DNA of 64,000 nucleotides. Origin: a virus. How positions within the stretch are numbered: position 1 is the first letter of the stretch; every line of letters starts with the position of its first letter. The translations under genes and the position numbers were made by a program. Below are positions 4,190 through 52,884 of the stretch, in pieces. The notes under the pieces were generated by a model. The model did not search any database. It worked only from the letters and a program-made list of their open reading frames with translations, and had not been told where the DNA came from. Where the stretch lies: positions 64,001-128,000 of IMG/VR virus record IMGVR_UViG_3300026445_000027. One strand, 5' to 3'.

Positions 4190-5257
4190 ATGGCAGATAA
4201 TCCAACGAGTGGTTGGTTTGACGGAACACCAGGTAACGCAAAACCTGCCAGTAATTTAACTCCACAGTCTTTCGAAGACTACATGGACTTTGCACTGCGA
4301 GAGAACGGAGGGCCTGGTTATCGGTCAGTCCTCGTTAACTTGTTGCGCGGAGCTAGGATTTTGGGCCCTGGGAACCAACAGGCCCCCATCCCCGACGACA
4401 CCATAGGATTAGTCTTCATGAACCGTCCGTGCTTGAATTTATCGGACAGTAACATCGAAGAACACCCGCAATTACTGTCTTATATCAGCCCGCCACAAAA
4501 CAGTCTCAACTCGTACATTAAAGGCTTGTTGGATCCTAACTGGGCTAAGGGCAACAGTGGTCTGGTGGAGTGGCTTGACCCACTTTATCCATGGATCGCT
4601 CCAGTTAGTAATTTGGTTAAAGTGTGCAGTGGCTTCCCAGACGTTAGTCTTAACGTAGCTCGTAGCACGCCAGGTATTCGTAAAGAGGTCTACCAATACG
4701 TCGACGGCATCTTAGCTGTCAACGGTGACTTCGATATGTCGTTGTCGTTCTATCCATTAAAGCATAACCTGCTGGCTACTATCTTCGATGTGTGGAACCA
4801 CTACATTGATGGTGTGTCTACAGGTGACACTGGGATGGAGCCTTACTCGGAAGCACTGATTCAGAACTACCGAGATTACGACTGTACTATCTTTACCGTT
4901 ATCATGAATAAAAACATGCGTAACGTTGAGGGCATTTATAACAACTTCTATTGCTGGCCTAACACTTTCCCGAGTGGGGCATTCAGTGCGGTAGACCGTA
5001 CCCAAGACACCTTGCGTGGTCAGGGGCAGGACGAACTCGAGATCCGGTTCCCTAGTGTTGGGTTCCGGTATAACAACCTTAAAGTAGTGGACCGGTTCAA
5101 CCGTATTACTCTGGCGTTCAATCCTAACATGAGTCCCGACCTGCGGGAGCAGAACTACAAGAAGTTAGATGTGGCCGAGTACTTTGCGGGCGGTTACCAC
5201 GCCTATCCATGGATCAACCCACTGAACATGGAAATGGAATACTGGAGCGCTAAATAA
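4190..5257 (+). CDS. Virion structural protein, probably baseplate/tube-like
   Basis: Start reassigned to ATG 4190 (MADNP); coupled (TAATG) to the 978-aa gene. Confidence 0.55.
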   Translation: MADNPTSGWFDGTPGNAKPASNLTPQSFEDYMDFALRENGGPGYRSVLVNLLRGARILGPGNQQAPIPDDTIGLVFMNRPCLNLSDSNIEEHPQLLSYISPPQNSLNSYIKGLLDPNWAKGNSGLVEWLDPLYPWIAPVSNLVKVCSGFPDVSLNVARSTPGIRKEVYQYVDGILAVNGDFDMSLSFYPLKHNLLATIFDVWNHYIDGVSTGDTGMEPYSEALIQNYRDYDCTIFTVIMNKNMRNVEGIYNNFYCWPNTFPSGAFSAVDRTQDTLRGQGQDELEIRFPSVGFRYNNLKVVDRFNRITLAFNPNMSPDLREQNYKKLDVAEYFAGGYHAYPWINPLNMEMEYWSAK

Positions 5258-50690: not shown

Positions 50691-50708
50691 GTAATATAGG
50701 CTTGTAAA
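50691..50708 (-). promoter_or_regulatory. Early promoter of phuZ
   Basis: TTTACAAGCCTATATTAC, with an exact TATATTAC core. Confidence 0.65.
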
Positions 50709-50899
50709 TTTATTACCCTACATAAAAAGGTTATCCAGTATAAATGCAAAAAAGAAAAGCATTACCTACCAGTACCTAAACCACATGGGCAAGGACTGGT
50801 AGGCTAAGCTTAACTACACTGGGATGCTATCAACTAACTAGGTCGAACCCTACAACGACCAGGTATGTGATTGAGCAATACAATATAAAGTGCAGTTAC

Positions 50900-51225
50900 A
50901 AAAAATAAAGTATAACCCCACCCAATACCCCTAGACCAGGCGACAGTGTCGGCTAGGATCAGGGCATTGAGCAGGGGGAGGTTTTCTTTGGTTGCCTCAA
51001 CAGCACAACCCAACCAGCGAATAACTAGGCAGACGATTACTGGTTGTTGCCTTAGGACCTCCTAACCTTTGGCAGGGGCAGGGGCTACAGCATGGGTCGA
51101 AGATACAAAGGAAGAGTGACGTACCAATTGAGAGGCACACCGGCCAGCAAACCTGACAACGGGTACATCACTCTGACTAGGCAAGCGAGGGCAAGCTTAG
51201 TCTACACGGCCGCTAGGTCCATGTT
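50900..51225 (-). ncRNA. Putative multi-hairpin RNA 3' of tRNA-Gln, ending in a terminator
   Basis: No credible ORF; 13-bp stem AGAGTGATGTACC/GGTACGTCACTCT and others; terminal hairpin plus TTTATTTTTT. Confidence 0.45.
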
Positions 51226-51302
51226 TGGAAGAGGTAGATGGATTCGAACCATCGCATGACAGGATCAAAACCTGTTGCCTTACCGGGCTTGGCTATACCT
51301 CT
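51226..51302 (-). tRNA. tRNA-Gln(UUG)
   Basis: AGAGGTA/TACCTCT acceptor, ACAGG-TT TTG AT-CCTGT anticodon arm, TTCGAAT T-loop, encoded CCA. Confidence 0.9.
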
Positions 51303-51307
51303 GTAAC

Positions 51308-51402
51308 TGGGGTGGTCTACGGGCTTTTACCGTACGTCGTGAGTAACAGGCCGGCCTCCAGACCTGTAACGGCTTTCTCAAAGTGGACCTTGGGAGAACA
51401 CC
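51308..51402 (-). ncRNA. tRNA-flanked structured RNA, copy 1
   Basis: GGTGTTC/GACCACC closing stem plus CCA; TACGG-TAAAAGC-CCGTA arm. Confidence 0.55.
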
Positions 51403-51409
51403 TTTGATT

Positions 51410-51485
51410 TGGCTCCACGTCCTGGATTCGAACCAGGGACCAACAGATTAACAGTCTGCTGCTCTACCGACTGAGCTAACGTGGA
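51410..51485 (-). tRNA. tRNA-Asn(GUU)
   Basis: Canonical 76-nt cloverleaf, CT GTT AA loop, CCA. Confidence 0.95.
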
Positions 51486-51497
51486 AGAAATATTGAC

Positions 51498-51609
51498 GGT
51501 CCATTCGGGCTTTTACCGCACTTACTCATGAGCTTGCGGCTCAAGGGGGCCCGACCGTCCGGGCGCCGAGTGCTTTCTTTACCTACCAGGGTTCCTTGAT
51601 CAATGGTCC
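51498..51609 (-). ncRNA. Structured RNA, copy 2 of the same motif
   Basis: CCATT/AATGG closing stem; AGAAAGC and CGGTAAAAGCCCG shared with copy 1. Confidence 0.5.
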
Positions 51610-51626
51610 TTTGTAGGTTAATATGT

Positions 51627-51758
51627 TGTTCGACCTGGTAAGGGGGAAGGGAGGCTCGTTTTATCCCCCGACTTGGACCCATGCACCGTATGGACTACTG
51701 GGCGGCTCCTTTTAGTGTAGCCCGGCTGTACCCTACCGTCTTTCCACCAGATCAAACA
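51627..51758 (-). ncRNA. Putative structured RNA closed by a 13-bp helix
   Basis: TGTTTGATCTGGT/ACCAGGTCGAACA, with G-U pairs on the minus strand only. Confidence 0.45.
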
Positions 51759-51774
51759 AACTCTTGAATAAAGT

Positions 51775-52063
51775 ATCCGTTCGCCACACCCGCGCTATTC
51801 GCATTCCGCAAGCGCGTCATGTACTTACATTCCCGTTGCCACGGATCACAGCAAAGCGCTCAGCGCGCTAGCACGGGAAAGAGTCCCCCTAGGACTTCTT
51901 GTGTGGGCTGCTTGCGCAATGCAAAGCCGCCCTGCGAGCCAACCTGACCGTCGGCTAAATGCCAGCAACAAGGTACCGTGACGAACCTTGTTGCCGGACT
52001 AGGTGTGTGTTCCTCAGCGCCCTTCGCCGCCCACAGCGCACCACCTTTGCTGAGGGACACACA
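51775..52063 (-). ncRNA. Putative hairpin-array RNA
   Basis: Consecutive long stems, e.g. TGTGTGTcCCTCAGC/GCTGAGGaACACACA and CCGGCAACAAGGT/ACCTTGTTGCTGG. Confidence 0.45.
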
Positions 52064-52065
52064 TT

Positions 52066-52205
52066 TGGTAGAGAGTACACGATTCGAACGTGTGGGCCCA
52101 TAAGTGTCGTTGGCCGACACCCTGAGCACATCCGGTTTCATGTAAGGCCGCCCTAGGGTACGCCCACAATCCTCCAGACTCCTTAAACCACTCGGACAAC
52201 TCTCT
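52066..52205 (-). ncRNA. 140-nt enlarged tRNA-like RNA
   Basis: Perfect acceptor stem, D-arm, T-arm and A-CCA end; about 85-nt central domain with no canonical anticodon arm. Confidence 0.75.
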
Positions 52206-52229
52206 GTTAACTTTGTATAACATAGGAAA

Positions 52230-52375
52230 TCGGGACGGATCCCAGGGTAGAGCCCTGGTCTTACGCCGTAAGTATACGACGCATTCTGGATCGCCCTCCG
52301 TCTTGAGGCTTTTCTTCCCTAAGTCTAGCCAACCCTGACGGCCGTTAGGCTAGAGAGTTAACCGCGACCCGGGTT
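52230..52375 (-). ncRNA. Putative structured RNA between tRNA-Leu and the tRNA mimic
   Basis: Stems GGTCGC/GCGATC, TCTAGCC/GGCTAGA, GCGTCGTA/TACGGCGT, CCAGGG/CCCTGG. Confidence 0.4.
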
Positions 52376-52385
52376 TATCCAAATA

Positions 52386-52471
52386 TGGTGCGAGAGACGG
52401 GCATCGAACCCGTATGGCCAGAAGCCGACAGATTTTAAGTCTGTTGTGTATACCAATTCCACCACACTCGC
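52386..52471 (-). tRNA. tRNA-Leu(UAA)
   Basis: 86 nt, long variable arm, CT TAA AA loop, A73, CCA; one U-U mismatch in the acceptor stem. Confidence 0.9.
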
Positions 52472-52884
52472 AGAACACACCGTTACATATCATAACCATG
52501 TGTAGTAAAAAGATAAGAGGAACTGCTCCAGATTGCGACATCCTTCACAATCCCTCTGTCACCTAGACCTCGGTAATAGTGTTAACCCTTTTACCGCCGT
52601 AAAGGCCCGCCTCATCAAACTCTCTGCTCACAACCATGCTGCCGGCCAGATCGAAATCCCAGGGCGGTCAGCACAGAAGAAGCCCAGTAGGAAAGTTTGG
52701 GTGACTTAGTGGGTTTGACGTTCCACTCATAGGTTCTGCTCAGAAAAGCTTGTCATCGCGATTCGTTGCATCATACAACCACCGGCTCCACCTTAAGGTT
52801 CCGGCTGATCTCCTCAATGGGAGAATTCGGTTTAGGCGTTAACAATCACACCTGTTGTATATAATGGATTATTGCAGTAACAAA

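What the first reader, a model, noticed from the sequence alone, without database searches (positions are those of the whole stretch)
52066..52205. 140-nt giant tRNA mimic lacking a normal anticodon arm
It has a perfect AGAGAGT/ACTCTCT acceptor stem, a Leu/Ser-type D-arm (TCCGAGTGGTTTAAGGA), a perfect T-arm (ACACG-TTCGAAT-CGTGT), A73 and CCA. About 85 nt with several small hairpins (GTGTCG/CGACAC, GGG-CGTA-CCC, TACAT/ATGTG) replace the anticodon and variable arms. Intact ends argue against decay, and the insert is too short for a self-splicing intron. Bacterial LeuRS relies on A73 and the elbow rather than the anticodon, so the RNA might be charged. Candidate roles are decoy for anticodon nucleases or tRNA-sensing defences, or a ribosome/RelA modulator. 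It shares GTCTGGAGG with the 51308-51402 RNA.
Basis: partly seen in the sequence, partly recalled or inferred. Interest (0 to 1): 0.8.

Follow-up and report, generated by a model that had tools for sequence, protein, structure and literature searches.

The report
Anticodon-less serine tRNA look-alike of jumbo phage
A nucleus-forming jumbo phage keeps a 140-base RNA gene that is a serine tRNA whose codon-reading loop has been closed into a long rod by a 33-base insertion, so it almost certainly cannot translate; it is built like the long-unexplained 'tRNA-like stable RNA1' of phage T5, and its job is still unknown.

Summary
On the minus strand (52205->52066) lies a 140-nt class II tRNA body in the tRNA/ncRNA island upstream of phuZ. 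ARAGORN and Rfam do not call it. I found six distinct versions in four lineages of uncultured chimalliviruses (PhuZ down to 58% identical). They keep the cloverleaf with covariation: 25 pairs 100% paired, 9 with double changes, 0/500 shuffles. The 5' 32 nt are 91-100% identical, more than the neighbouring tRNA-Asn.

The arms are not replaced; they are expanded. A covarying 5-bp anticodon stem encloses a 33-37-nt insertion placed 5' of a relic NGAAA. A true variable arm is enlarged to about 32 nt, but is of normal size in one lineage.

All 67 canonical phage tRNAs sharing its 5' half are tRNA-Ser, none Leu. Relic positions 32/33 pair, with covariation, into the inserted hairpin, and the window lineage has A33. 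The anticodon is therefore buried in a purine-rich internal loop of a rod.

No splicing or RNA-ligase genes were found. T5 RNA1, annotated as a tRNA-like stable RNA, has the same topology.

Verdict: a non-decoding, tRNA-Ser-derived stable RNA. Its function is unknown; a decoy role is only an inference. This scan has noted the same kind of RNA before in other phages.

The parts
52066..52205 (-). Whole 140-nt tRNA-Ser-derived tRNA-like RNA gene (5' end at 52205, CCA at 52068-52066)
   Evidence: Sequence read. Homologues. Model R1 gives 140 bits on the own genome, single copy.
52199..52205 (-). Acceptor stem 5' strand AGAGAGU, pairing with 52070-52076 ACUCUCU
   Evidence: 7 of 7 pairs kept in 6 of 6 sequences.
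52180..52196 (-). D arm UCC-GAGUGGUUUAA-GGA (3-bp stem, 11-nt loop, Ser type)
   Evidence: Near-invariant in all homologues: only one D-loop base varies (U/G). The same 19-nt 5' half occurs in 67 canonical phage tRNA-Ser genes.
52174..52178 (-). Anticodon stem 5' strand UCUGG, pairing with 52131-52135 CCGGA
   Evidence: Pair 27:43 covaries U-A to G-C. All cells are paired.
52141..52173 (-). 33-nt insertion: 5' linker AGGAU, then a hairpin whose 3' strand ends in relic positions 32/33 (C-A)
   Evidence: Same site and 33-37 nt in all six. Sequence identity is only 51-78% but the topology is the same. It is unique in the genome.
52136..52140 (-). UGAAA: relic of anticodon UGA plus A37 A38, now the 3' strand of a 5x5 internal loop opposite AGGAU
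   Evidence: NGAAA is kept in all six, as UGA or AGA. Canonical relatives have the loop CUUGAAA.
52096..52127 (-). Enlarged variable arm: GCUCA-GG-GUGUCG-GCCAA-CGACAC-UUA-UGGGC
   Evidence: The basal 5 bp covary, with 4 of 5 pairs showing double changes. The arm is 29-40 nt in five sequences but a normal 10 nt in L029.
52077..52093 (-). T arm ACACG-UUCGAAU-CGUGU
   Evidence: 4 of 5 pairs show compensatory changes and the loop is invariant.
52066..52069 (-). Discriminator A73 and encoded CCA
   Evidence: Not conserved: G73 in L005 and L007, and no encoded CCA in L005, L007 or L029.
52206..52237 (-). Conserved upstream motif CGUCCCGAUUUCCUAUGUUAUACAAAG..., a possible phage-RNAP promoter or processing signal
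   Evidence: The same motif precedes tRNA-Asp in L029, and part of it precedes tRNA-Leu in L011. There is no sigma-70-like promoter on this strand. The promoter function is an inference.

Best explanation
This is a tRNA-Ser(UGA) gene converted into a non-decoding tRNA-like stable RNA. It is transcribed on the minus strand with the phage tRNA/ncRNA island. Because it keeps a perfect acceptor stem, D/T elbow and a purine discriminator, host RNase P, 3' trimming and the CCA enzyme should mature it like a tRNA (inferred).

A 33-37-nt insertion just after the 5' strand of the anticodon stem folds back and pairs with former loop positions 32/33. Former positions 34-38 (UGAAA) now lie opposite AGGAU in a purine-rich internal loop. 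The anticodon arm is thus a closed rod of about 20 bp with no 7-nt loop (shown by comparative folding). The RNA cannot read codons.

The class II body, including the long variable arm on which serine identity mainly rests, is kept under stronger constraint than a real tRNA next to it. The RNA therefore most likely works by being bound as a tRNA-Ser look-alike by some tRNA-recognising factor. Candidates are SerRS, with possible charging, or a host toxin that picks tRNA-Ser by acceptor end and variable arm. In that case it would act as a sponge or decoy without disturbing translation. This last step is inference only.
For: - Cloverleaf core: 25 pairs are 100% paired in 6 sequences, 9 pairs have double changes, and 0/500 shuffles match. 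RNAalifold agrees.
- Constraint: the 5' 32 nt are 91-100% identical, against 82-92% for tRNA-Asn and 69-83% for phuZ DNA in comparisons between lineages.
- Serine origin: 67 canonical phage tRNAs with the same 19-nt 5' half are all Ser (UGA or GGA).
- Rod architecture: every lineage has an outer stem, an internal loop [A/U]GGAU / UGAAA and an inner hairpin. Positions 33/32 pair as U-A, G-C in the window lineage and A-U, A-U in L007. In L005 positions 33/32 pair as A-U, C-G, with position 34 as U-A.
- The window lineage has A33 instead of U33.
- No RtcB, Rnl2, T4 Rnl1 or tRNA splicing endonuclease hits in the own record or in a complete relative genome.
- Sister tRNA-like genes of the same clade (E1) have a 12-bp rod with a triloop, and no deletion restores a shared anticodon.
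- T5 RNA1, annotated as a 144-nt 'tRNA-like stable RNA', has the same topology with a relic Leu loop CUUAAAA. It matches model R1 end to end at 34.8 bits.
- tRNA-Ser is picked by the MenT3 toxin through its long variable loop (PMC11162799, PMC11541572).
Against:
- In three of four lineages U33 and a serine anticodon are retained. In L029 an in-silico 35-nt deletion gives a tRNA-Ser(UGA) that ARAGORN accepts. Splicing is therefore not excluded.
- The discriminator flips between A and G in close lineages, which argues against strong selection for serylation.
- The hairpin of the window lineage is thermodynamically weak (z = -0.4 and -1.1).
- Only six sequences in four lineages are known.
- The decoy role has no direct support.
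Confidence: 0.55

Rival explanations
1. It is an intron-bearing tRNA-Ser(UGA) gene. A small, non-self-splicing intron at position 31/32-33/34 is removed by an unknown host or phage endonuclease and ligase, giving a working serine tRNA. This would resemble the 'enigmatic' tRNA introns reported in Lak megaphages.
For: NGAAA with a serine anticodon (UGA or AGA) is kept in all six. U33 is kept in L005, L007 and L029. Deleting 35 nt from L029 gives a tRNA-Ser(UGA) accepted by ARAGORN. The complete relative genome has no other tRNA-Ser. The insert sequence evolves fast, like an intron. Phage tRNA introns of unknown mechanism are reported in PMC6784885.
Against: The window lineage has A33, paired to a compensating U in the insert. 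The anticodon is AGA in L005, and an unmodified A34 is unusual in bacteria (my own knowledge, not checked here). The predicted structure is a symmetric internal loop, not a bulge-helix-bulge. No group I intron signal was found and 33 nt is far too short. No RtcB, Rnl or endonuclease genes were found. The T5 analogue is annotated as a full-length stable RNA. Sister RNA E1 cannot be restored by any deletion.
Confidence: 0.2
2. It is purely a processing and stability module. A tRNA-shaped 'punctuation mark' lets RNase P and 3' nucleases cut the long island transcript into the neighbouring structured RNAs, and the RNA has no function of its own.
For: The island alternates tRNAs, tRNA-likes and other conserved structured RNAs with short spacers. 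The modules are shuffled between relatives.
Against: Punctuation needs only the acceptor and T arms. Here the D arm, position 26, the anticodon stem and the internal-loop motif are the most conserved parts, at 91-100%. The variable arm also keeps covarying structure. Ordinary tRNAs in the same island could already serve as cutting marks.
Confidence: 0.15
3. It is a decaying tRNA pseudogene disrupted by a hairpin insertion or the footprint of a mobile element.
For: tRNA finders do not call it. The insert sequence is poorly conserved.
Against: It is kept across phages whose PhuZ is only 58% identical. It shows 9 compensatory pairs, no broken pair, and a 5' half more conserved than a real tRNA. 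The insert and variable arm have no other copy in the genome.
Confidence: 0.03

Closest known systems
Phage T5 RNA1 (NC_005859 30501-30644; annotated 'tRNA-like stable RNA with unknown functions') and RNA2
   Same: It lies in the phage tRNA cluster. It has a class II tRNA body, a 5-bp anticodon stem (ACUGC/GCGGU), and an insertion directly after the 5' strand of that stem. The relic 7-nt loop (CUUAAAA) is kept on the 3' side, with positions 32/33 paired into the inserted hairpin and a 5x5 purine-rich internal loop (CGAAU/UAAAA). Size is about 140 nt. Model R1 matches it end to end at 34.8 bits, E 8e-10.
   Different: T5 RNA1 derives from tRNA-Leu(UAA), not tRNA-Ser, and has a normal-sized variable arm. 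It comes from an unrelated phage family (Demerecviridae). The two are analogues, not orthologues. The function of T5 RNA1 is also unknown.
Phage T4 species 1 RNA (rnaC, 139 nt) and species 2 RNA (rnaD)
   Same: They are small stable RNAs of similar size encoded at the end of the tRNA cluster. rnaC ends in a tRNA-like acceptor and T arm.
   Different: R1 matches rnaC only weakly (12.7 bits). The rnaC 5' part is a different long hairpin, and there is no conserved anticodon stem with a relic loop.
Canonical phage tRNA-Ser(UGA)/(GGA) genes (e.g. L078, L045)
   Same: The 19-25 nt at the 5' end, the D arm, the T-arm type and the class II variable arm are identical. L045 shares its T arm with the L007 version.
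   Different: The canonical genes are 83-89 nt with a 7-nt loop CUUGAAA, G1-C72 and G73. The RNA here has A1-U72 (G-U in L029), A or G at 73, a 33-37-nt insertion and usually a doubled variable arm. The four such phages tested (L045, L078, L090, L058) lack PhuZ.
'Enigmatic' tRNA introns of Lak megaphages (Devoto et al. 2019, PMC6784885)
   Same: These are phage tRNA genes with short insertions near the anticodon that bacterial tRNA finders miss. The mechanism is unknown.
   Different: Lak insertions were predicted with eukaryotic tRNAscan settings as introns, and intron-less alleles exist. Here no intron-less allele was found, and positions 32/33 are built into a helix.
tmRNA tRNA-like domain, YrlA Y-RNA-like RNAs, tRNA-Sec
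   Same: These are tRNA mimics with an acceptor and T arm but no decoding anticodon arm (tmRNA, YrlA), or a serylated class II tRNA with unusual arms (tRNA-Sec).
   Different: There was no ARAGORN tmRNA call and no Rfam tmRNA or YrlA match on this RNA. The tRNA-Sec model scores only 22 bits against a threshold of 47 on the L029 copy. The RNA here has a normal 7-bp acceptor stem and a 3-bp D stem.

Membership tests
tRNA (Rfam RF00005), class II tRNA-Ser | Cloverleaf with 7-bp acceptor stem, D arm, T arm with UUCGAAU loop, G18G19, U8 | tested here: met
   all core pairs are present and covary.
tRNA (Rfam RF00005), class II tRNA-Ser | 5-bp anticodon stem closing a 7-nt loop with U33 and a free anticodon | tested here: not met
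   The stem is present, but the 'loop' is 38 nt and folds into a rod. The window lineage has A33. RF00005 and ARAGORN give no call.
tRNA (Rfam RF00005), class II tRNA-Ser | Serine-type body: 3-bp D stem, long variable arm, G2-C71, A3-U70, C11-G24; G73 | tested here: inconclusive
   The body features are met, and the 5' half is shared only with tRNA-Ser genes. G73 is met in 2 of 6 sequences only; the others have A73. Charging is not testable here.
Group I intron in a tRNA anticodon loop | Ribozyme core of about 200 nt or more (P3-P9), matched by Rfam Intron_gpI | tested here: not met
   The insert is 33-37 nt. There was no Rfam hit at E<=10.
Archaeal/eukaryal-type protein-spliced tRNA intron | Bulge-helix-bulge motif at the exon-intron junctions | tested here: not met
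   Predicted structures show a symmetric 4-5 x 4-5 internal loop between two helices in five of the six copies and an asymmetric 2x3 loop in L005. None shows two 3-nt bulges 4 bp apart.
Archaeal/eukaryal-type protein-spliced tRNA intron | Splicing endonuclease and RNA ligase available | tested here: not met
   PF01974, PF01139, PF09414 and PF09511 gave no hit in G000 or in the complete relative G001. Host enzymes were not testable. The PF09511 control rang in no genome, so that search is uninformative.
Phage tRNA-like stable RNAs (T5 RNA1 type) | Located in the tRNA cluster; tRNA acceptor/D/T body; anticodon stem enclosing an insertion that closes the loop into a rod | tested here: met
Phage tRNA-like stable RNAs (T5 RNA1 type) | Accumulates as a stable full-length RNA in infected cells | not testable with these tools
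No cultured relative is known: the closest isolates have about 40% PhuZ identity and lack the RNA.
tmRNA | tRNA-Ala-like domain plus tag reading frame and pseudoknots | tested here: not met
   There was no ARAGORN tmRNA call. Rfam gave no tmRNA match on this RNA. No conserved ORF exists; the GGAGG..GUG mini-frame occurs only in the window lineage.

The most novel reading that the evidence does not exclude
Nucleus-forming jumbo phages deploy a set of non-decoding tRNA mimics. Here the mimic is a tRNA-Ser body with an exaggerated variable arm. Such mimics would act as sponges for host anti-phage toxins that recognise tRNAs by acceptor end and variable arm, for example DUF1814 nucleotidyltransferases of the AbiEii/MenT type or Septu-type variable-loop nucleases. 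Closing the anticodon into a rod would let the decoy accumulate without causing mistranslation. This would also explain T5 RNA1/RNA2 and T4 species 1 RNA.
Probability: 0.15. Interest if true: 0.8.

Novelty: new member of a known kind. Interest (0 to 1): 0.5.

Why it matters
tRNA-shaped stable RNAs without a usable anticodon have been annotated in phages T4 and T5, with their function given as unknown. This RNA shows that the same design arose independently from a serine tRNA in nucleus-forming jumbo phages. The shared design is an insertion right after nucleotide 31, the relic loop built into a rod, and a purine-rich internal loop. The RNA is kept under stronger constraint than a real tRNA.

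Together with similar finds by this scan in other phage groups, it points to a widespread and still unexplained class of phage RNAs. The comparative data give concrete elements to mutate: the internal loop GGAU/UGAAA and the variable-arm GG/UUA motif. The practical point is that standard tRNA finders miss these genes.

Tried and rejected
- Searches for more homologues: four IMG/VR pattern scans, one metagenome scan and one bacterial-genome scan. These gave only six distinct sequences. The other 14 metagenome hits were tandem ordinary tRNAs or an unrelated tRNA-Ser locus.
- Cultured relatives: R1 found nothing in Shewanella phage FishSpeaker or Erwinia phage RisingSun, and only an 89-nt match the length of an ordinary tRNA-Ser (not read out) in Psa21.
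- LeuRS reading: rejected, because the body is Ser-type.
- Kink-turn reading of the internal loop: rejected by hand. Both strands carry equal numbers of unpaired bases, so there is no 3-nt bulge.
- tmRNA-like mini-ORF after GGAGG: rejected. It is present only in the window lineage and the spacing is too short.
- Mobile-element insertion: rejected, because there are no other copies.
- Shared GTCTGGAGG motif with the 51308-51402 RNA: not significant.
- Thermodynamics alone: the unconstrained MFE of the 140-mer is not the cloverleaf (z = -1.1), so the structure rests on comparative evidence.
- Phage-encoded CCA enzyme or SerRS-type synthetase: none found.

Full report
**Context.** The window is bases 64001-128000 of a 142.8-kb IMG/VR virus record, about 60% complete. 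The gene just downstream of the non-coding island is a PhuZ tubulin (phrog_4733, E 2.5e-69). The phage is therefore a nucleus-forming chimallivirus-like jumbo phage. Its closest cultured relatives share only about 40% PhuZ identity. All genes here, and the three tRNAs that ARAGORN and Rfam call, lie on the minus strand. These tRNAs are Gln 51226-51302, Asn 51410-51485 and Leu-UAA 52386-52471.

**The observation.** Read on the minus strand, 52205->52066 is a 140-nt RNA. It has:
- an acceptor stem AGAGAGU/ACUCUCU and U8 G9;
- a 3-bp D stem with an 11-nt loop (UCC-GAGUGGUUUAA-GGA);
- a canonical T arm (ACACG-UUCGAAU-CGUGU);
- A73 and CCA.

Neither ARAGORN (also with introns allowed) nor Rfam reports it. 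The unconstrained MFE is not a cloverleaf. Everything therefore depends on comparative evidence.

**Homologues.** Pattern scans and PhuZ-anchored locus searches gave six distinct versions:
- window (identical to L002);
- L023;
- L011 (identical to L018);
- L005 (identical to L017);
- L007 (identical to L025);
- L029 (identical to L030, the complete 229-kb genome G001).

PhuZ identities to the window are 100, 82, 73 and 58%. On the MAFFT alignment A3 the 25 core pairs are paired in every sequence. Nine pairs show changes on both sides, and no shuffle out of 500 reaches the observed values. Sliding the 3' partner destroys the signal. RNAalifold recovers the same cloverleaf on its own.

The first 32 nt are 91-100% identical between lineages. 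That is more than the bona fide tRNA-Asn of the same contigs (82-92%) or phuZ DNA (69-83%). The insert is only 51-78% identical and the variable arm 23-62%. This is a selected RNA gene, not a pseudogene. It is single-copy in the own record and in G001.

**What the middle is.** The anticodon and variable arms are not replaced.
- A 5-bp anticodon stem (UCUGG/CCGGA) is present, and its first pair covaries U-A to G-C.
- Between its strands lie 33-37 inserted nucleotides followed by NGAAA (UGAAA, or AGAAA in L005).
- After UGU comes a true class II variable arm whose basal 5 bp covary. It is enlarged to 29-40 nt in five sequences, with a recurring GG/UUA irregularity. In L029 it has the ordinary 10-nt size.

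The insertion in the anticodon arm is thus the constant feature, and the giant variable arm is lineage-specific.

**Origin.** A 19-nt probe from the 5' half found 73 IMG/VR loci. Apart from the copies of this RNA and one truncated hit at a locus end, all 67 are canonical 83-89-nt tRNA-Ser genes. Fifty-three have anticodon GGA, 14 have UGA, and none is Leu. Their loop is CUUGAAA. One of them (L045) even shares the T arm of the L007 version. The four of these phages that I tested have no PhuZ. The RNA is therefore a derivative of a phage-type tRNA-Ser(UGA), and NGAAA is the relic of anticodon plus A37 A38.

**Architecture of the new anticodon arm.** Folding each sequence, alone or with the core constrained, gives the same topology in every lineage:
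- an outer stem of 5-6 bp;
- an internal loop 5'-[A/U]GGAU-3' / 5'-UGAAA-3' (shortened to GG/GAA in L005);
- an inner hairpin.

The first pairs of the inner helix use the former loop positions 33 and 32, and they covary. They are U-A, G-C in the window lineage and A-U, A-U in L007. In L005 positions 33/32 pair as A-U, C-G, with position 34 as U-A. The window lineage has A33 instead of the near-universal U33, matched by a U in the insert.

The hairpin is clearly stable in L005, L007 and L029 (z = -2.4 to -3.8) but weak in the window and L011 (z = -0.4 and -1.1). The tip loops are 3-5 nt, so no alternative anticodon loop exists. The former anticodon is buried in a purine-rich internal loop of a rod of about 20 bp. 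From established knowledge of decoding, such an arm cannot enter the ribosomal decoding centre. This last point is an inference.

**Is it an intron?**

*In favour:*
- the serine anticodon is retained;
- U33 is retained in three lineages;
- deleting 35 nt from L029 yields a tRNA-Ser(UGA) that ARAGORN accepts;
- the complete genome G001 has no other tRNA-Ser.

*Against:*
- A33 and the covarying 32/33 pairing;
- AGA in L005;
- no bulge-helix-bulge motif, and no group I signal;
- no RtcB, Rnl2, T4 Rnl1 or splicing-endonuclease domains in G000 or G001, though the Rnl1 control rang nowhere.

The same clade also carries other tRNA-like genes with closed anticodon arms. E1 (L029 5300-5385 and L007 8477-8561) has a 12-bp rod with a triloop, and no deletion restores the same anticodon in both orthologues. 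RNA-seq could not be consulted. I put splicing at about 0.2.

**Known counterparts.**
- The T4 record annotates rnaC (139 nt, species 1 RNA) and rnaD next to its tRNAs. Only the 3' part of rnaC is tRNA-like, and it matches weakly.
- The T5 record annotates RNA1 (144 nt) and RNA2 as 'tRNA-like stable RNA with unknown functions'.
- T5 RNA1 matches my model end to end (34.8 bits, E 8e-10) and has the same design. It has an outer stem ACUGC/GCGGU, a 5x5 loop CGAAU/UAAAA and an inner hairpin. A relic tRNA-Leu(UAA) loop CUUAAAA sits on the 3' side, with positions 32/33 paired into the insert.

The annotated T5 species is the full-length RNA. By analogy, this supports an unspliced stable RNA here. 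The two RNAs derive from different tRNAs in unrelated phages, so they are analogues. Lak megaphage 'enigmatic tRNA introns' (PMC6784885) are the other published parallel. Earlier agents of this scan reported the same kind of anticodon-less tRNA look-alike in several other phage groups. This is one more member of that kind, the first I know of in chimalliviruses and derived from tRNA-Ser.

**Function.**

*Shown:* a conserved, structured, tRNA-Ser-derived RNA with a closed anticodon arm.

*Inferred:*
- tRNA-like maturation;
- no decoding;
- recognition by factors that read the class II body.

Serine identity depends mainly on the variable arm and not on the anticodon (PMC9976931), so serylation is possible. 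However, the discriminator flips between A and G in sister lineages, which weakens that idea. The G15/C48 body is not Leu-type.

The toxin MenT3, of the DUF1814 family that includes the abortive-infection protein AbiEii, selects tRNA-Ser through its long variable loop (PMC11162799, PMC11541572). A Septu system is reported to cut the variable loop of tRNA-Tyr (PMC13096335, abstract seen). A sponge for such toxins is therefore a testable idea, but nothing here supports it directly. A pure punctuation role is less likely, because the D arm, the anticodon stem and the internal-loop motif are the best-conserved parts.

**Verdict.** The 'tRNA mimic' reading is supported. The Leu, anticodon-nuclease and RelA details are not. 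Novelty: a new member of a known but unexplained kind. Interest is moderate (0.5).

Noticed in passing
window 51643-51743 (minus strand); L004 about 1485-1620; L003 about 2140-2290: An element of about 105 nt (GACGGUAGGGUACAGCC...AAAGGAGCCGCCC...GGUGCAUGGGU.CAAGUC.GGGGAUAAAACGAGCC) is about 80% identical to unannotated stretches inside the tRNA clusters of the Pseudomonas jumbo phages Psa21 and D6, and also hits Erwinia phage pEa_SNUABM_9. There is no Rfam match. RNAalifold gives three hairpins but little covariation.
   Followed up: partly
L029 5300-5385 and 5394-5483; L007 8477-8561 (minus); L005 5281-5363: Further tRNA-like genes of this phage clade have lengthened or closed anticodon arms (83-90 nt, type I bodies). 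E1 has two conserved acceptor-stem mismatches and a 12-bp rod with a triloop. ARAGORN calls the L005 one tRNA-Ile(GAU) with an oversized loop.
   Followed up: partly
window 51308-51402 (minus) and L029 about 4480-4560: The 95-nt RNA between tRNA-Asn and tRNA-Gln is conserved in L029 with compensatory changes: ACAGG..CCUGU becomes ACAGA..UCUGU, and UACGG-UAAAAGC-CCGUA becomes UACAG-UAAAAGU-CUGUA. It is absent, together with tRNA-Gln, from the near-identical contig L002, so it behaves as a movable module.
   Followed up: partly
window 50700-52880 versus L005, L007, L011, L023, L029: The RNA modules of the 2.2-kb island are shuffled, gained and lost between relatives. The roughly 290-nt structured RNA lies downstream of the tRNA-Ser mimic in the window but upstream of it in L007 and L029. 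The tRNA sets also differ: Leu/Asn/Gln, against Asp/Trp/Asn, against Leu/Ser-GCU/Asn.
   Followed up: partly
L005 4612-4703: ARAGORN reports a 92-nt 'tRNA-Gly(CCC)' that is really the 3' two-thirds of the tRNA-Ser mimic. It is an example of how these genes get mis-annotated.
   Followed up: yes
L107 (phage T5 30284-33083): The T5 tRNA region is annotated with six stable RNAs of unknown function (RNAI, RNAIII, RNAIV, RNA2H, RNA1, RNA2) interleaved with tRNAs. This is the same mosaic layout as the island here.
   Followed up: partly
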